The translations under genes and the position numbers were made by a program. The notes under the pieces are model-generated. The model did not search any database. It saw nothing but the letters and a program-made list of their open reading frames with translations, and was not told the origin of the DNA. From Ruminiclostridium sp. (GTDB lineage: Bacteria; Bacillota; Clostridia; Oscillospirales; Oscillospiraceae), in the NCBI GenBank assembly GCA_017435425.1, contig JAFSFC010000009.1, forward strand, positions 10,050 to 74,049: DNA of 64,000 nucleotides, written 5' to 3'. Of this stretch, positions 12,866 to 56,007 are shown piece after piece (the stretch's first letter is position 1; each line of letters begins with the position of its first letter).

Positions 12866-13289
12866 AGAAGTATCATATAATCTGTCTTTACGGGAGAGGC
12901 GTTGGATGCTAAAATAGGCCCAACCCAATTGGAAGGTGGGTATGCCTGTTTCCTTCATCGGAAGGAGGAAGCGGGTGCTTCATTGGCTCACACCAAGCCG
13001 GCTGTCAGGGCGATTCGCTCCTCGTTCTGACGACGAACCAGTCTGTCTCCTGCCAGGGGTGTGGCACGGAGTAAACCGAGACAGACGCCATTTCCATATT
13101 CTCCTTTTTGTGCTGTTCCGGCTGACCTGCCCTCTCTTCGTCAGTGTAGTCTTTCCCGGGCCGTGAACAGAAAATGGCTGCTCTTGACCGCCCCCGGTCG
13201 AGGGCAGTTGTTTTTTGGAAAAAAGGGAAAAAGAAAAGAGCAGCTGAAACAGCGGCTCTGGAGACACGACCCACGACGAGAAGTCGTGT

Positions 13290-13420
13290 ATCCTCCGTCT
13301 GTTTGCCTGAGAGATTCGGCCCGTGGGCCTTGCACCTTCGGCACTCAATTCAATGAGATTCTCCAGAGATCCCTCCGTTTCCAGTTTCGGTCTGATCCTA
13401 AAAACATCATCGGGCCATAT
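13290..13420 (-). ncRNA. Glycine riboswitch (singlet), copy upstream of a small ORF and lysR
   Basis: Minus strand: atatggcccgatga...ctctggagaatctc..gccgaaggtgcaa..aatctctcaggcaaacagacggag. It is followed by an anti-aptamer (tccagag) and a U-rich terminator. Confidence 0.85.
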
Positions 13421-15165: not shown

Positions 15166-15259
15166 GATGATATCCTCCCGAAAAATGGAATAAAAAATGA
15201 GCTGCCGAAAGATCAGCAACTCCGAAGAATAACATACAGACACCGTTTGGAACGATGGT

Positions 15260-15396
15260 CTGCTCTGTCCTTTTGCCTGAGAGATTCGGTCAAGACTGAC
15301 CTTACACCTTCGGCACTCAACTCAATGAGATTCTCCAGAGGTCCCTCCGCCTTCAGTCTCCCGTTTGGGGATCCTTAAGGGTTCATCGGGCCATAT
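15260..15396 (-). ncRNA. Glycine riboswitch (singlet) upstream of the AGCS symporter
   Basis: Minus strand: atatggcccgatga...ctctggagaatctc..gccgaaggtgtaa..aatctctcaggcaaaaggacagag. Classic genomic context. Confidence 0.9.
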
Positions 15397-26135: not shown

Positions 26136-27188
26136 ATGAAAATCGTTGTCCTGGCCGGCGGCCTCAGCCCGGAGCGGAACGTCTCCCTCTCCTCGGGCAC
26201 CATGATCACGGAAGCCCTGCGCTCCCTGGGCCACCGGGCAGCTCTCGTAGATATGTATTTTGGTCTGGAGGACTACACCGGTCCTCTGGAGGACTTTTTC
26301 GACCAGCCCGTGTCCGAGGCCGGAAAGAAGGTGGACCGGGCCGAGCCCGACCTGGAAGCCATCCGGAAGGCCCGGAAGTGGCAGTCCCCCAGCCTCTTCG
26401 GCAAGAATGTCATTGAACTCTGCCAGATGGCGGATATCGTCTTTCTGGGGCTCCACGGGGCCTGCGGTGAGGACGGCCGGGTCCAGGCCGCTTTCGACGT
26501 GCTGGGCATCCCCTACACCGGGGCCGGGTCCCTGGCCTCGGGTATCGCCATGGACAAGGACCTGACCAAGCGCCTCATTGCCGGTCTGGGTGTGGAGACC
26601 CCCAAGTGGGTCCGCACCGACTACACCGAAAAGGATGTGGACCGGCTCACCAGCACCACCCCCGTCCCCTGTGTAATCAAGCCTGTGGACAGCGGCTCCT
26701 CCATCGGCGTGGCCATCGCCCACACCAAGAAGGAGCTCCACGCTGCCCTGCTGGAGGGCCTGAAGTTCGGCGGACGGTGCGTCCTGGAGCAGTACGTCTC
26801 CGGCCGGGAGATCCAGGTGGGCATCCTGGGTGACACTGCCCTGCCCTCCATCGAGATCATCCCCAAAGAGGGCTTTTACGACTACGCCAACAAGTACCAG
26901 CCCGGCGCCGCTGAAGAAATTTGCCCCTCTCCCATCCCCGAAGCCTGGGAGAAGAGACTGGAGCAGGATGCCCTCACGGTCTACCATGCCCTGGGTCTGG
27001 AGGTCTATTCCCGGGCTGACTTCATCGTGGACGAGGCCGGGACCCCCTGGTTCCTGGAGATCAACACCCTCCCCGGCATGACCCCCACCAGTCTGGTTCC
27101 CCAGGAGGCCGCCGCCGTGGGCATCGGCTACGGGGAACTCTGTCAGAAGATCATCGACCTGTCTCTGCAGGCCAGAAATAAAAACTAA
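26136..27188 (+). CDS. ddl: D-alanine--D-alanine ligase
   Basis: GG.SPERNVSLSSG, LHGACGEDG, KPVDSGSSIG, YDYANKY and EINTLPGMT. Confidence 0.95.
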   Translation: MKIVVLAGGLSPERNVSLSSGTMITEALRSLGHRAALVDMYFGLEDYTGPLEDFFDQPVSEAGKKVDRAEPDLEAIRKARKWQSPSLFGKNVIELCQMADIVFLGLHGACGEDGRVQAAFDVLGIPYTGAGSLASGIAMDKDLTKRLIAGLGVETPKWVRTDYTEKDVDRLTSTTPVPCVIKPVDSGSSIGVAIAHTKKELHAALLEGLKFGGRCVLEQYVSGREIQVGILGDTALPSIEIIPKEGFYDYANKYQPGAAEEICPSPIPEAWEKRLEQDALTVYHALGLEVYSRADFIVDEAGTPWFLEINTLPGMTPTSLVPQEAAAVGIGYGELCQKIIDLSLQARNKN

Positions 27189-28602: not shown

Positions 28603-28622
28603 ATAGTGCTGTACTGCGAGGT

Positions 28623-28752
28623 TACAACCCCTCCGACTCGCCTGACGGCGAGCCACCTCCCCTTACACAGGGGAGGCAGAGGCGAGTGCGAAACCTCAGG
28701 CTCCCTTGTGTAAAGGGAGCTGGCACGGCGAAGCCGTGACTGAGGGATTGTA
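28623..28752. repeat. Intergenic palindromic repeat family M, copy 2
   Basis: tacaacccctccgac...ttacacagggg...ccttgtgtaaaggg...gagggattgta. Confidence 0.85.
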
Positions 28753-28818
28753 GCCTGCCGATTCCAACCAACGTACAAAAAAGCGCCCGCCAAGGGCGGG
28801 CGCTTTTCAGCGAAAGAA

Positions 28819-36339: not shown

Positions 36340-36365
36340 GTCGCCGATATACCGTATCGACAGAT

Positions 36366-36491
36366 TACAATCCCCCAGTCAGCTTCGCTGACAGCCCCCT
36401 TTACACAAGGGGGCCTTGAGGGGAGCACAGCCTAAAAGCCTCCCTTGTGTAAAGGGAGGTGGCACGGCGAAGCCGTGACGGAGGGATTGTA
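36366..36491. repeat. Intergenic palindromic repeat family M, copy 3
   Basis: tacaatcccccagtcagcttcgctgac...ccttgtgtaaagggaggtggc...gagggattgta. Confidence 0.85.
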
Positions 36492-47667: not shown

Positions 47668-48450
47668 ATGTTAGGTGCTATGATTGGCGACATCGTGGGT
47701 TCCGTCTACGAGTGGAACAACTGGAAAGACAAGCGGTTCAAGCTCTTTCACCCCCAGTGCCGCATGACCGACGACAGCGTCATGACGGCGGCGGTGGCCT
47801 CCGCCCTGCTGAGCAGTGACCTGACCGATTTGGAGATGTTCAAGGAGAACCTGGTGGCCGAGATGCACCGCTTCGGCAAGGCCTATCCCGGCCTGGGCTA
47901 CGGCCCCCGGTTCGAGAAGTGGCTGGTCCAGGGGAGCACCAAGCCCTACGGCAGTCTGGCCAACGGCAGCGCCATGCGGGTCTCTCCCGTGGCCTGGGTG
48001 GCCGAGACCATGGAGGAGTGCCTGGCCCTGGCCAAGGCCTCTGCGGAAGTGACCCACGACCACCCCGATGGCATTGCCGGTGCCCAGGCTCTGGCAGGTG
48101 CAGTCTTCCTGGCCAAGATGGGGGAGCGGAAAGAGGTCATCCGTGACTTTGTGGAGAACTATTACTCCCTGGACTTCACCCTGGACGGCATCCGGGAGGA
48201 GTACCAGTTTGATGTGTCCTGCGCCGGCAGTGTGCCCCAGGCCATCGTGGCCTTCCTGGAGGCCACCGGCTTCGAGGATGCCATCCGCAACGCTGTGTCC
48301 ATCGGCGGCGACAGCGACACCATCGCCTGTATGGCCGGCGCTGTGGCGGCTGCCTTCTACGGCATCCCCAAGGACATCCGGGAGGAGGCCGGTCCCTTCA
48401 TCGACGGCGAGGTCCGGAACGTCCTGGATCGCTTCACCCGTCTGTACTGA
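47668..48450 (+). CDS. ADP-ribosylglycohydrolase (DraG/ARH family)
   Basis: GAMIGDIVGS, TDDS, NGSAMRVSP, SAEVTH.HP and IGGDSDTIA. Confidence 0.92.
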   Translation: MLGAMIGDIVGSVYEWNNWKDKRFKLFHPQCRMTDDSVMTAAVASALLSSDLTDLEMFKENLVAEMHRFGKAYPGLGYGPRFEKWLVQGSTKPYGSLANGSAMRVSPVAWVAETMEECLALAKASAEVTHDHPDGIAGAQALAGAVFLAKMGERKEVIRDFVENYYSLDFTLDGIREEYQFDVSCAGSVPQAIVAFLEATGFEDAIRNAVSIGGDSDTIACMAGAVAAAFYGIPKDIREEAGPFIDGEVRNVLDRFTRLY

Positions 48451-48459
48451 GGTGGCCGG

Positions 48460-48936
48460 ATGAAGAACACCACCCTGTGCTATATCCAGCGGGAGGGGCA
48501 GTATCTCATGCTCCACCGGGTGAAAAAGAAGAATGATGTGAACCAGGACAAGTGGGTGGGCATCGGCGGCAAGTTTGAGGACAAGGAGAGCCCCGAAGAC
48601 TGCCTCCTGCGGGAAGTGCAGGAGGAGACCGGCCTGACCCTCACAAGCTACGCCTACCGGGGCCTGGTGACCTTTGTCTCCGACCAGTGGGAGACCGAAT
48701 ATATGCACCTGTTCACCGCCGATGCCTTCGAGGGGGAGATCGGTCCCTGCGACGAGGGAAACCTGGAGTGGGTGGACAAGGATAAGGTGAAGGCCTTGCC
48801 CATCTGGGTGGGGGACAAGATCTTCCTGGATCTGCTGACCCAGGAGGTCCCCTTCTTCTCCCTGAAACTGGCCTATGAAGGGGAGACCCTGGTGGAAGCT
48901 GTGCTGAATGGGCAGGAGCTTTCCACCCAGGTGTAA
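48460..48936 (+). CDS. NUDIX hydrolase, 8-oxo-dGTP diphosphatase-like
   Basis: GGKFEDKESPEDCLLREVQEETGL Nudix box and C.EG.LEW. Confidence 0.88.
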   Translation: MKNTTLCYIQREGQYLMLHRVKKKNDVNQDKWVGIGGKFEDKESPEDCLLREVQEETGLTLTSYAYRGLVTFVSDQWETEYMHLFTADAFEGEIGPCDEGNLEWVDKDKVKALPIWVGDKIFLDLLTQEVPFFSLKLAYEGETLVEAVLNGQELSTQV

Positions 48937-48946
48937 AGCTCTGCCA

Positions 48947-49225
48947 ATGATATATTCCCTGCTGGGAATATGATGTCCTTCCTTCGGAAGGATGATGTAT
49001 CGCTGGCGCGATATGATGTGTGCCTGGGGCACATTGTGGTATCACTGCGTGATGATTAAAATGAGAAAGGACGATGTCCGCCAAAGGCGGATATCGTCCT
49101 TTTCCGTCATATTTTCGAAGAAAATACATCATAGGCAAAGCCTGCATCATACGCCGTCAGGCGTACATCATCCATTTGCCATGCAAATGGACATCATTGC
49201 TGTGAGCCGAAGGCTCACAGCAGTG
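48947..49225. repeat. Mirror-symmetric TGATG/CATCA-punctuated hairpin array
   Basis: About 5 hairpins separated by TGAT(G), a central long hairpin with A/T tails, then about 5 hairpins separated by CATCA. Confidence 0.85.
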
Positions 49226-49643
49226 CTTCTATCTGAGACTCCCCATACACCGTCAGGCCCAGCTCCTTTAGGGCCCGGGCGGTGAGACCGTCCCCGGCCA
49301 CCAATGTTTTGGTGAAGGTGCCGTCGTAGACCTGACCACAGCCGCAGGAGGGGCTGCGCTCCTTCAGCAGGGCGGCGGTGCAGCCGGTGACCTGGGCCAG
49401 GCGGGCCACTTCCCGGGCACCCCGGGTGAATTCCTGGGTGACCTCCCGGCCCTCCCTGTTCACCACCCGGTCTCCCACGATCTCTGCCGGGACTCTGGGG
49501 GTGGAGAGACCCCCGAAGACCTCGGCGCAGGCGGGGATGCACTCATGGCGGGCCAGAAGCTCCTTCAGCTGGGGCAGCTGGTTGCTCTTGCCGTCGTACC
49601 GGCAGCCCACCCCCATGAGGCAGGCGCTCACCAACAGACGCAT
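49215..49643 (-). CDS. DUF523 family protein (TudS-like thio-nucleobase desulfurase family)
   Basis: VSACLMGVGCRYDG, CAEV.GGL.TPR and LKERSPSCG. Confidence 0.88.
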   Translation of the reverse strand: MRLLVSACLMGVGCRYDGKSNQLPQLKELLARHECIPACAEVFGGLSTPRVPAEIVGDRVVNREGREVTQEFTRGAREVARLAQVTGCTAALLKERSPSCGCGQVYDGTFTKTLVAGDGLTARALKELGLTVYGESQIEALL

Positions 49644-52623: not shown

Positions 52624-52648
52624 CCAACGTGGTTCCGATCTGCGACGC

Positions 52649-52778
52649 TACAATCCCCCAGTCATGGCTGCGCCATGCCAGCCCCCTTTGCACAAGTGGG
52701 CCTTGAGGTTGGTACTTGCCTCTGCCTCCCTTGTGTAAAGGGAGGTGGCTCGCCGTCAGGCGAGACGGAGGGATTGTA
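52649..52778. repeat. Intergenic palindromic repeat family M, copy 4
   Basis: tacaatcccccagtc...ccttgtgtaaagggaggtggctcgccgtcaggcgagacggagggattgta. Confidence 0.85.
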
Positions 52779-53001
52779 AACCCGAAGGGCAGTTCTCACG
52801 TTTGAATTATGTCCGAACAATATGCACACAAACACCCGCCGGAAGTCGGGTGTTTGTTGTTGTTTTGACGAAAATCTGTTTTTGACGAAAAAATTGCAAA
52901 AAGGGGTTGCAATCTCTCCGTGATATGTTATTATGTTAGTGCTTTAGTACGATAGAGTATTGAACCAACTCTACCAGATTTCTTTTAGGAGTGTTAAAAT
53001 T

Positions 53002-55930: not shown

Positions 55931-56007
55931 TGGTCCGAGTGTTGAGATTCGAACTCAAGGCCTCTTGAACCCCATTCAAGCGCGATACCAAACTTCGCCA
56001 CACCCGG
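55931..56007 (-). tRNA. tRNA-Pro (anticodon GGG), CCA encoded
   Basis: CCGGGTG acceptor / GCGA-TCGC D stem / CTTGA-ATGGGGT-TCAAG anticodon arm / TTGAG-TTCGAAT-CTCAA T arm / CACTCGG-ACCA; 77 nt. Confidence 0.95.

What the first reader, a model, noticed from the sequence alone, without database searches (positions are those of the whole stretch)
48947..49225. Mirror-image hairpin array punctuated by TGATG and CATCA between convergent genes
Seen, left arm: atattccc/gggaatat, tccttcc/ggaagga, tatcgc/gcgata, tgtgcc/ggcaca and tcac/gtga hairpins joined mostly by TGAT(G). Centre: aaaggacgatgtccgcc-aaa-ggcggatatcgtcctttt. Right arm: tattttc/gaaaata, aggc/gcct, tacgcc/ggcgta, tccatttgc/gcaaatgga and ctgtgagcc/ggctcacag joined by CATCA, the reverse complement of TGATG. 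Stem sequences are all different while the linker is constant, which inverts CRISPR logic. Each convergent transcript would read hairpin-UGAUG units before the shared terminator. Inference: a selected array, for example multivalent RNA-binding-protein or nuclease sites, or products of an HUH/RAYT-like enzyme. I cannot place it in a described family.
Basis: partly seen in the sequence, partly recalled or inferred. Interest (0 to 1): 0.75.

Follow-up and report, generated by a model that had tools for sequence, protein, structure and literature searches.

The report
Mirror-image Gut-1-like hairpin array cassette
The 280-base spacer between two convergent housekeeping genes is a real, non-random row of short hairpins joined by a constant linker. 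It is a variant of the orphan 'Gut-1' RNA motif of gut bacteria, sits there as a strain-specific cassette with its own two-way terminator, and its function is still unknown.

Summary
It is two convergent arms of short perfect hairpins joined by (A)UGAUG(U), meeting at a 17-bp bidirectional terminator, between a NUDIX gene and a 2-thiouracil-desulfurase gene.

It is not unplaceable. Rfam's Gut-1 model (RF01706, an orphan motif from 2010) hits the + arm at 45.4 bits (cut-off 50) and the - arm at 25. True Gut-1 loci are also mirror arrays, and their partner arms score 41.6-47.5 bits. Some arrays mix AUGAU-type and GUGAUAU linkers, so this is a linker variant of that family.

New points:
- The unpaired linker is only GAW, closed by a wobble pair on the sense strand.
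- Loops are semi-constant (U-N-C).
- All 12 arms tested fold better in sense than in antisense.
- The outermost hairpins cover both stop codons.

The array is missing from the same site in equally close strains, which keep an older terminator. Where present it is 100% identical despite 2.2-2.4% divergence in the flanks. A 40-nt inner core recurs in about 25 other contigs of one metagenome.

Best reading: a mobile or exchangeable intergenic cassette that acts as single-stranded RNA at the 3' ends of both genes, most likely as a multivalent binding or 3'-end module. No RNA data exist for it. Rival: a selfish MITE/BIME-like DNA repeat.

The parts
48460..48936 (+). NUDIX (8-oxo-dGTP diphosphatase-like) gene whose 3' end runs into the left arm
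   Evidence: Pfam PF00293, E 8e-18. Gene call in the identical contigs L001-L004.
48916..48941 (+). Outermost left hairpin, GAGCTTTCCACC ca GGTGTAAAGCTC. It contains the NUDIX stop codon (TAA, 48934-36).
   Evidence: Inverted repeat I9, 12 nt, 92% complementary. It forms in the RNA minimum-free-energy fold. Array-free relatives have different last codons and no such hairpin.
48945..49053 (+). Left arm. It starts with linker CAATGAT, followed by five hairpins: 48952-71, 48976-92, 48998-49013, 49019-33 and 49041-53. They are joined by ATGATGT at 48970, 48992 and 49013, and by a degenerate TTGTGGT at 49034.
   Evidence: Sequence. Rfam Gut-1 hit at 48945-49024 (+), 45.4 bits, E 2.6e-7. Local hairpins in the fold, z -8.2.
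49066..49103 (.). Central 17-bp palindrome with an A-tract on one side and a T-tract on the other: a bidirectional intrinsic-terminator-like hairpin
   Evidence: Inverted repeat I4, 94% complementary. It is the strongest helix in both RNA folds, and T-rich tails were flagged on both strands. It differs from the ancestral terminator AAAAACCCGCCCAwTGGGCGGGTTTT kept by array-free relatives.
49104..49199 (-). Right arm, read on the - strand. It starts with CAATGATG at 49199-92, followed by four hairpins: 49191-71, 49165-50, 49143-33 and 49126-10. They are joined by ATGATG, and the arm ends in a degenerate TGACGG at 49109-04.
   Evidence: Sequence. Rfam Gut-1 hit at 49121-49199 (-), 25.0 bits, E 0.037. 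RNA fold z -8.6.
49199..49221 (-). Outermost right hairpin, GCTGTGAGCC ttc GGCTCACAGC on the - strand. It contains the stop codon (TGA, 49217-15) of the 2-thiouracil desulfurase gene.
   Evidence: Inverted repeat I7, fold, gene end.
49215..49616 (-). 2-thiouracil desulfurase (PF04463) gene, convergent with the NUDIX gene
   Evidence: Pfam hit, E 1.6e-42. Gene call of 133 aa.
49103..49144 (-). Multi-copy conserved core: the two innermost right-arm hairpins plus their linker (TTCCGTCATATTTTCGAAGAAAATACATCATAGGCrAAGCCTG)
   Evidence: Contig depth of about 345x against 4.5x locally in metagenome run X16, with 26 contigs laid on the 191-base stretch around it and most of the extra depth over 49103-49144. 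Their flanks are unrelated and include ATTTCAC/ATATCAC (Gut-1-type) arrays.

Best explanation
The segment from about 48916 to 49221 is a Gut-1-class tandem-hairpin cassette in its usual mirror form.

Anatomy:
- Each arm is a row of short helices (4-9 bp) with unrelated stems and U-N-C loops.
- The helices are joined by the 7-mer AUGAUGU. Its outer bases close the neighbouring helices (G.U and U-A) and leave only GAU single-stranded.
- The two arms point toward each other and meet at a strong bidirectional intrinsic terminator that belongs to the cassette.

Shown:
- The structure is real.
- It is related to Rfam Gut-1.
- It has a strand polarity.
- It is absent from the orthologous site in very close strains and is invariant where present.
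- Its inner core occurs in many unrelated contigs.

Inferred:
- It arrived as a unit, by insertion or recombination, replacing the older terminator.
- It acts as single-stranded RNA. Each convergent mRNA ends in its own sense-oriented arm plus the shared terminator.
- The different stems keep the helices from mispairing. The RNA would then display a regular row of identical GAU triplets and U-N-C loops.
- I take this to be a multivalent docking site for an oligomeric RNA-binding protein or nuclease, which would set the 3'-end fate of the transcripts: stability, processing or termination efficiency.
- The first helix also covers the stop codon.
For: Family:
- Gut-1 model hits on both arms.
- Bona fide Gut-1 loci score 59-77.7 bits, but their mirror partner arms score only 41.6-47.5, the same range as here.
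- Published seed loci are mirror arrays with GUGAUAU/GUGAAAU linkers.
- Arrays mixing ATGATAT with GTGATAT (L177), or CATCAT with ATATCAC, tie the linker types together.

Single-strand polarity:
- In 12 of 12 arms (about 7 independent) the sense RNA fold is 3-11 kcal/mol more stable than the antisense fold.
- G.U pairs number 49 in sense against 12 in antisense.
- 27 of 31 loops start with U when read in sense.
- Linker spacing is 18-26 bp, so the linkers are not helically phased on duplex DNA.

Constraint:
- There are 0 differences in the 279-nt spacer in L326 and L332, although the flanks differ by 2.4% and 2.2%.
- The longest mismatch-free runs of the two alignments (48877-49222 and 48888-49250) coincide with the array.
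- Compensatory stem changes separate homologous arms of L139 and L194.
- The Rfam seed alignment lists 18 covarying pairs.

Cassette behaviour:
- The array is absent, with the ancestral terminator kept, in L331 (97.7% nt), L327, L328, L329/L009 and L333.
- The core is multi-copy.

Position: arrays start 0-15 nt after stop codons here and twice in L177.
Against: - There is no expression evidence. The metatranscriptome contigs barely cover this organism, and no RNA run holds the array.
- The mirror form also occurs where the second arm faces a co-directional gene start (L177), or next to tRNA terminators. The second arm is therefore not always in a 3' UTR.
- In some Gut-1 loci the arrays lie beyond the genes' terminators.
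- Inside the stems of this locus there are no G.U pairs at all, about 67 Watson-Crick pairs. Young or DNA-level palindromes would look like this.
- 100% identity among strains could equally reflect recent spread.
- No binding protein is known, and none was identified here.
Confidence: 0.45

Rival explanations
1. Selfish mobile DNA. The mirror array is a non-autonomous element, MITE- or BIME-like, moved by a transposase that acts on single-stranded hairpin DNA or on multi-site inverted ends. Any RNA effects are incidental.
For: - Presence/absence polymorphism among strains about 98% identical.
- A 40-60-nt core at 80-97% identity in about 25 contigs with unrelated flanks.
- Occurrence in viral and prophage contigs and beside tRNA genes or tRNA fragments.
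- The inverted-repeat architecture holds whatever the orientation of neighbouring genes (L177).
- Linker numbers are equal in the two arms: 4/4, or 5/5 here.
- A 7-bp terminal inverted repeat, CAATGAT/ATCATTG.
- All stems are perfectly Watson-Crick.
- The same genome carries another hairpin-cluster repeat family with clear inverted ends. A different hairpin element sits at this very site in L005 and L012.
Against: - There is no target-site duplication and no clean empty-site junction. The whole spacer, including the terminator, is replaced.
- No transposase lies within about 6 kb on either side of the array.
- Arrays are rare: one in this 64-kb window and none in about 170 kb from relatives.
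- Stems differ between units, which a sequence-specific transposase would not tolerate.
- Sense-strand wobble pairs and the U-N-C loop polarity point to selection on one strand of each arm.
Confidence: 0.28
2. An ordinary 'cluster of hairpins' terminator or 3'-end stabiliser that grew in place. The hairpins only block exonucleases or help termination, and the constant linker has no meaning of its own.
For: - Hairpin clusters within 80 nt of stop codons are reported as common intrinsic termination units (PMC8355165).
- The arms lie between stop codon and terminator, and they fold very stably.
Against: - This does not explain the conserved 7-mer linker, the U-N-C loops or the CAAUGA start.
- It does not explain the match to an RNA family found in unrelated loci.
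- It does not explain the all-or-none difference between close strains.
- It does not explain the shared core in other genomes.
Confidence: 0.1
3. Fold-back or cruciform ladder. On one strand, the linkers of the left arm (ATGATG) pair with those of the right arm (CATCAT). This would give a rod of stacked four-way junctions recognised as DNA or as a long RNA, for example as a recombination or junction-binding site.
For: - The linkers are complementary in register, 6-8 bp each (inverted repeats I1, I2, I17, I18).
- The DNA fold of the whole segment uses such long-range pairs, z -12.7.
- The arms have equal numbers of units.
Against: - Complementarity follows automatically from having the same motif in opposite orientation.
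- Linker variants do not covary in register. In L177 the left arm reads A,A,G,G and the right arm reads G,G,A,A in its own sense. BAAZ01000095 has variant left linkers opposite canonical right ones.
- Here a terminator separates the arms in RNA.
- The wobble closures favour local hairpins on opposite strands.
Confidence: 0.04
4. Array of duplex-DNA binding sites (iteron- or partition-like) for a protein that reads the 7-bp motif.
For: The motif is repeated directly and then inverted, at roughly 21-bp intervals. ATATCAC-type linkers resemble heptad operator repeats; this resemblance is my recollection only and was not tested.
Against: - Spacing varies from 18 to 26 bp, so the sites do not stay on one face of the helix.
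- It does not explain why every spacer is a perfect palindrome with a polar loop.
Confidence: 0.03

Closest known systems
Gut-1 RNA motif (Rfam RF01706; Weinberg et al. 2010, PMC2864571)
   Same: - Tandem short hairpins with unrelated stems.
- A conserved purine-UGA-W-R-U linker whose ends close the helices.
- A CAAUGA start, and gut-metagenome origin.
- The mirror-image partner arm is visible in the published alignment flanks and in new loci.
   Different: - The linker is AUGAUGU (unpaired GAU, wobble as G.U), not GUGAAAU or GUGAUAU (U.G).
- Scores are 45.4 and 25 bits, below the 50-bit cut-off.
- There are 4-5 hairpins per arm rather than 3.
- The arms abut two stop codons and flank a terminator.
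- The host is a ruminant/animal-gut Clostridia MAG lineage, not 'human gut only'.
- The family's function is itself unknown.
REP / BIME elements of enterobacteria (with RAYT transposases)
   Same: - Palindromic units clustered after stop codons, often between convergent genes.
- Inverted orientations within a cluster.
- Patchy distribution.
- Known to act on mRNA 3' ends (from my general knowledge).
   Different: - REP palindromes are the conserved part, and they carry a 5' GTAG.
- Here the stems are all different and the linker is constant.
- Units are direct within an arm rather than alternating.
- Copy number is low.
- No RAYT gene was seen.
Small non-autonomous repeats with hairpin modules (BOX, Correia, ERIC, other MITEs)
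   Same: - Intergenic.
- Modular.
- Presence/absence between strains.
- Fold as RNA when co-transcribed.
   Different: - Those have long conserved inverted ends and conserved internal sequence.
- Here only 7 bp of terminal inverted repeat and a 40-nt core are conserved.
- No target duplication was found.
Multivalent protein-binding RNAs (CsrB/RsmZ GGA arrays; TRAP and HutP triplet repeats)
   Same: A short identical motif is displayed many times on a structured scaffold. In TRAP and HutP targets the motifs are triplets (GAG/UAG).
   Different: - The motif here lies between helices rather than in loops or in plain single strand.
- No cognate protein is known.
- This is a functional analogy only.
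CRISPR arrays
   Same: Regular alternation of constant and variable segments.
   Different: - The roles are reversed: the variable part is the palindrome.
- Units are only about 21 nt.
- The arrays are mirrored.
- No cas genes lie nearby.
- No strain-to-strain gain or loss of units was seen.

Membership tests
Gut-1 RNA (RF01706) | Score at or above the curated gathering threshold of the Rfam covariance model (50 bits) | tested here: not met
   45.4 bits for the + arm and 25.0 bits for the - arm. The mirror partner arms of loci that do pass (59-77.7 bits) score 41.6-47.5.
Gut-1 RNA (RF01706) | Three or more tandem hairpins with unrelated stems, and full-length alignment to the model | tested here: met
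   Model positions 1-77 of 77 are aligned on both arms, and the hairpins are in register.
Gut-1 RNA (RF01706) | Conserved linker GUGAAAU/GUGAUAU and 5' start CAAUGA | tested here: inconclusive
   The CAAUGA start is present on both arms. The linker is AUGAUGU, which shares UGA and the final U. Arrays with mixed linkers exist (L177, ATGATAT plus GTGATAT; a contig with CATCAT plus ATATCAC).
Gut-1 RNA (RF01706) | Expressed as a non-coding RNA | not testable with these tools
   No RNA run holds the array. Metatranscriptome contigs give almost no coverage of this organism.
REP/BIME | The same imperfect palindrome repeated many times per genome, with a conserved 5' GTAG | tested here: not met
   All ten stems differ and there is no GTAG. 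There is only one array in 64 kb.
REP/BIME | Cognate RAYT (Y1 HUH) transposase gene in the genome | not tested
   Only a 64-kb window is available. The genes within about 6 kb either side are metabolic or transport genes.
MITE-type non-autonomous transposon | Terminal inverted repeats plus target-site duplication, and a clean empty site in relatives | tested here: inconclusive
   There is a 7-bp inverted repeat, CAATGAT/ATCATTG, but no duplication. Relatives lack the array, but their whole spacer and terminator differ.
MITE-type non-autonomous transposon | Multiple near-identical copies at unrelated sites | tested here: inconclusive
   Only a 40-60-nt core recurs, in about 25 contigs of one metagenome. 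No second copy is present in the window.
Bidirectional intrinsic terminator (central hairpin only) | G+C-rich stem flanked by an A-tract and a T-tract, so that both strands end in a U-run | tested here: met
   17-bp stem, AAAGG...CCTTTT. Termination itself was not measured.
CRISPR array | Constant repeats of 23-50 nt separated by unique spacers, usually with cas genes | tested here: not met
   The constant part is only 5-7 nt, and the variable part is palindromic. There are no cas-like genes in the neighbourhood.

The most novel reading that the evidence does not exclude
The arrays are written, not merely inherited. A dedicated process would add 'constant linker plus new palindrome' units, and some palindromes would be made from neighbouring host sequence. 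Four observations fit this:
- The two outermost hairpins use the genes' own last codons as one arm.
- Two inner stems match coding sequence 96 nt and about 800 nt away at 14 of 15 bases.
- All stems are perfectly Watson-Crick.
- The inner core is conserved while the outer units differ.

That would make Gut-1-type arrays a new class of structure-specific mobile or recording element, an 'inverse CRISPR' in mechanism as well as in looks.
Probability: 0.06. Interest if true: 0.9.

Novelty: new variant of a known kind. Interest (0 to 1): 0.5.

Why it matters
Gut-1 has been an orphan motif since 2010, described in one sentence as 'human gut only'. This locus and the related loci gathered here add a concrete anatomy:
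- mirror-image arms;
- a three-base unpaired linker closed by a wobble pair;
- polar U-N-C loops;
- frequent placement right at stop codons or beside tRNA terminators;
- occurrence in viral contigs;
- strain-level presence or absence with complete invariance where present.

That turns a vague motif into something testable. Is it a multivalent RNA docking site for an unknown protein that is common in gut Clostridia and their phages, or a new kind of hairpin-based mobile DNA? Either answer would bear on how 3' ends of genes are shaped in a large and poorly studied part of the gut microbiota.

Tried and rejected
- **Coding repeat (Met-Met).** Rejected. ATGATG spacings are 22 and 21 nt on the left arm and 18, 22 and 25 nt on the right arm, so no reading frame is kept.
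- **Other Rfam families.** Nothing but Gut-1 appears at E up to 10.
- **Viral-contig scans.** The core gave 0 hits. ATGATGT x3 gave 120 loci, none with hairpins between the motifs. GTGAAAT x3 gave 119 loci, of which six hold true arrays.
- **BLAST against the plasmid and cultured-phage collections.** No match.
- **RNA evidence.** No usable run.
- **Unit gain or loss between strains.** None seen. Only two single-base variants fall inside the array.
- **Fold-back pairing of linkers.** No covariation in register.
- **Duplex-DNA phasing.** Spacing is too variable.
- **Local origin of stems.**
  - There are two 15-mer matches to nearby coding sequence (P about 0.003).
  - This was not reproduced in six other arrays.
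  - One of the two stems also matches a different repeat family.
  - It is kept only as an unexplained lead.
- **Prophage attachment-site idea.** It was prompted by arrays next to tRNA genes or fragments in viral contigs. No integrase lies beside them in the loci inspected, and the window locus has no tRNA or phage genes nearby.

Full report
**1. What is in the sequence**

On the + strand, the NUDIX gene (48460-48936; Pfam PF00293) is followed by:
- a start motif, CAATGAT;
- five perfect hairpins (stems of 8, 7, 6, 6 and 5 bp; loops TGCT, TTC, TGGC, TGG, TGC);
- ATGATG(T) linkers at 48970, 48992 and 49013, and a degenerate TTGTGG.

Next comes a 17-bp palindrome, AAAGGACGATGTCCGCC/GGCGGATATCGTCCTTT (49066-49102). 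After it the same design appears in reverse complement: four hairpins joined by CATCA(T), ending in CATCATTG.

The 2-thiouracil-desulfurase gene (PF04463) runs in from the right on the - strand and stops at 49217-49215.

**2. More than chance**
- TGATG directly followed by a perfect stem of at least 5 bp occurs three times per strand inside the locus. It occurs three times in the remaining 64 kb on both strands together.
- A scan for chains of perfect hairpins over the window plus 84 other loci (1.2 Mb) found no other chain of five.
- As RNA, the + arm with its terminator folds to -95.6 kcal/mol (z = -8.2). The - arm folds to -78.5 kcal/mol (z = -8.6). In both cases the fold is a row of local hairpins.
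- The ATGATG spacings (22 and 21 nt; 18, 22 and 25 nt) keep no reading frame, so this is not a coding repeat.

**3. It belongs next to a described family**

A permissive Rfam scan gives one meaningful family, Gut-1 (RF01706). The hit at 48945-49024 (+) scores 45.4 bits (E 2.6e-7). The hit at 49121-49199 (-) scores 25 bits (E 0.037). Both align to the full model, and both are below the 50-bit cut-off.

Gut-1 was reported by Weinberg et al. (PMC2864571) from human gut metagenomes. The only comment there is that it is not found in any sequenced organism.

The published alignment includes flanking sequence, and that sequence shows something the text does not mention. Most seed loci are mirror arrays: four GUGAUAU or GUGAAAU linkers with hairpins, a short centre, then hairpins with AUAUCAC or AUUUCAC. 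A few are single arms with their own terminator. Some follow a tRNA gene and its terminator. The alignment records 18 covarying pairs.

A pattern scan of viral contigs, filtered for hairpins between the linkers, gave six new loci with the same layout. In these loci one arm passes the Rfam cut-off (59-77.7 bits), while the mirror partner scores 41.6-47.5 bits. That is where the window's + arm falls.

The linker types are not separate families. L177 mixes ATGATAT and GTGATAT within its arms. A metagenome contig joins the window's two inner hairpins with CATCAT and then continues with ATATCAC.

I therefore file the locus as a linker variant of the Gut-1 class, not as a threshold-passing member.

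**4. Finer anatomy shared by the family**

The model alignment and the folds show that the 7-mer is not wholly single-stranded. Its last two bases and the first two bases of the next 7-mer close the intervening helix. In Gut-1 these closing pairs are A-U and U.G. In the window they are G.U and U-A. Only GAA or GAU is left unpaired.

Three observations show that each arm has a sense strand:
- In all 12 arms examined (about seven independent), the sense RNA fold is 3-11 kcal/mol more stable than the antisense fold.
- G.U pairs number 49 in sense against 12 in antisense.
- The loops are polar. Read in sense, 27 of 31 distinct hairpins start the loop with U and 18 end with C. UGC (7 times) and UUC (4 times) are the commonest loops.

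This argues for a structure formed by one strand, most simply RNA. It argues against a symmetric duplex or cruciform feature.

Linker spacing of 18-26 bp is also too irregular for sites on one face of duplex DNA. Once the hairpins form, however, the GAW triplets are evenly spaced.

Against a purely RNA origin, the roughly 67 stem pairs of this locus include no internal G.U pair.

**5. Evolutionary behaviour**

The organism is an uncultured gut Clostridia lineage. The nearest record is a sheep-colon MAG labelled Ruminiclostridium sp., and related MAGs are labelled Evtepia.

At the orthologous NUDIX/desulfurase junction I found the following:
- L009/L329/L330, L327, L328 and L333 (93-95% NUDIX amino-acid identity) have only a 37-55-nt spacer, made up largely of the terminator AAAAACCCGCCCAwTGGGCGGGTTTT.
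- L005 and L012 keep that terminator but carry a different hairpin cluster, bounded by CCCCCTCATC...GATGAGGG.
- L331 is 97.7% identical upstream. It also lacks the array and keeps the old terminator. Its similarity to the window ends at 48912.
- L326 (97.6% nt identity) and L332 (97.8% nt identity) carry the array. In both, the array is 100% identical to the window. The longest mismatch-free runs of the two alignments are 48877-49222 and 48888-49250, which is essentially the array itself. At the divergence seen in the flanks, six to seven differences would be expected in each.
- Other metagenome strains show only single-base variants inside the array, at 48955 and 49194. No units are gained or lost.

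So the array is all-or-none between very close strains, it replaced the older terminator, and it is frozen where present. Two explanations fit: purifying selection on every base, or recent spread of one allele.

**6. A shared core**

I laid metagenome contigs on the locus at 80% likeness. This shows a sharp depth spike, about 345x against 4.5x locally in run X16. The spike covers 49103-49144, the two innermost right-arm hairpins.

In all, 26 contigs of that run were laid on the 191-base stretch around it. Their flanks are unrelated and include Gut-1-type linkers. Some share a homologous central terminator.

The centre of the cassette is therefore shared among several genomes or loci, while the outer hairpins differ.

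My attempt to fetch these contigs from the JGI metagenome collection with a 20-mer failed, returning chance hits only.

**7. Context in other loci**

Arrays start at or just after stop codons in L177, twice. In L112, L139, L194, L202 and L206 they lie after a conserved terminator beside tRNA genes or tRNA fragments. They sit within or beside phage gene blocks in L177, L194 and L202.

In L177 the second arm faces the ribosome-binding site of a co-directional gene. The mirror form is therefore a property of the element and not a by-product of convergent genes.

Arms have equal linker numbers (4/4, or 5/5 here) in every independent locus I could read.

Linker variants do not covary between arms in register. 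This speaks against a fold-back ladder of four-way junctions, although such pairing is thermodynamically possible.

**8. Explanation**

The best-supported reading is a Gut-1-class cassette consisting of two sense-oriented hairpin arms plus its own bidirectional terminator. It was acquired as a unit in one sub-lineage and acts at the level of single-stranded RNA at the 3' ends of both convergent genes.

The mechanism I commit to is inferred, not shown:
- The unrelated stems prevent mispairing.
- The RNA therefore presents a regular series of identical GAU triplets and U-N-C loops.
- This series would act as a multivalent site for an oligomeric RNA-binding protein or nuclease controlling 3'-end stability, processing or termination.
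- The first helix covers the stop codon.

I give this reading 0.45.

The main rival, at 0.28, is that this is primarily selfish mobile DNA of MITE/BIME type, with RNA effects incidental. That rival fits the patchy distribution, the inverted architecture, the perfect palindromes, the shared core, and the abundance of other hairpin-cluster repeats in this genome. It fits less well with the absence of junction signatures, the low copy number and the strand polarity.

The two readings are not exclusive. REP and BIME elements are both mobile DNA and active at mRNA 3' ends; this is my general knowledge and was not tested here.

The other rivals are less likely:
- A generic hairpin-cluster terminator (PMC8355165) does not explain the constant linker or the family relationship.
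- The fold-back ladder and the duplex-DNA binding array are unlikely for the reasons given above.

**9. An unexplained lead**

Two inner stems match nearby coding sequence at 14 of 15 bases:
- 49148-62 matches 49244-58.
- 49022-36 matches the reverse complement of 48228-42.

The null expectation is 0.013 such matches, giving P of about 0.003. Both outermost hairpins also use the genes' last codons as one arm.

This hints that palindromes may be built from local sequence. However, the signal was not reproduced in six other arrays. One of the two stems also shares its 12-nt core with another repeat family at 28639 and 52751. I keep it as the basis of the low-probability novel case.

**10. Verdict**

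The object is a new variant of a known but functionally orphan kind. Interest is moderate (0.5). It would rise sharply if a partner protein or a unit-adding mechanism were found.

Noticed in passing
window ~1460-1670, 28622-28755, ~36365-36480+, 52648-52790: A second family of hairpin-cluster repeats. It has clear inverted ends (TACAATCCC... / ...GGGATTGTA), a conserved middle hairpin (CTCCCTTGTGTAAAGGGAG) and variable flanking hairpins such as CTCGCC-TGAC-GGCGAG. At least four copies lie in the 64 kb, and it looks MITE-like. The weak Rfam whalefall-1 hit at 28656-28700 lies inside one copy.
   Followed up: partly
L005:11270-11400 and L012:2700-2815 (orthologous to window 48937-49214): In two related MAGs the same NUDIX/desulfurase spacer holds a different hairpin cluster, bounded by CCCCCTCATC...GATGAGGG(G). 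It is inserted between the stop codon and the ancestral terminator. This spacer seems to be a hot spot for hairpin elements.
   Followed up: partly
window 49148-49162 vs 49244-49258; 49022-49036 vs 48228-48242 (reverse complement): Two array stems (arm plus loop plus 3 nt) match neighbouring coding sequence at 14 of 15 bases. The local excess is significant against shuffles (P about 0.003) but was not reproduced in other arrays.
   Followed up: partly
window 26427-26444: A 17-18-nt stretch nearly identical to the right half of the central terminator (GGCGGATATCGTC). Its context was not examined.
   Followed up: no
window 13285-13376 (-) and 15255-15348 (-): Two glycine riboswitch aptamers (58.7 and 57.7 bits), about 2 kb apart on the same strand.
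   Followed up: no
window 55934-56007 (-): A tRNA gene (58.5 bits). It is 6.7 kb from the array, so unlike several Gut-1 loci this array is not tRNA-adjacent.
   Followed up: no
L177:165-236, 1514-1588, 2618-2695, 2903-2979: Four Gut-1-like arms within 4.5 kb of one viral contig. Two of them begin at the stop codons of consecutive genes, so arrays can be dense in phage-like DNA.
   Followed up: partly
L194 (minus strand, around the left arm): A 17-nt direct repeat (TCCTCACCGCCGCAGCG) flanks one arm of the mirror array. L112 has the other arm alone, followed by a related sequence. This could be an insertion signature, or simply a repeated array unit.
   Followed up: partly
Gut-1 seed alignment, contig BAAZ01000130.1: Four Gut-1 hits spaced exactly 240 nt apart on one contig. 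This suggests that whole arrays can be tandemly amplified.
   Followed up: no
window 48880-48906 vs 49218-49244: The last codons of the two convergent genes are 74% complementary to each other over 27 nt, just outside the array. Both stretches are conserved coding sequence in relatives, so this is probably chance.
   Followed up: no
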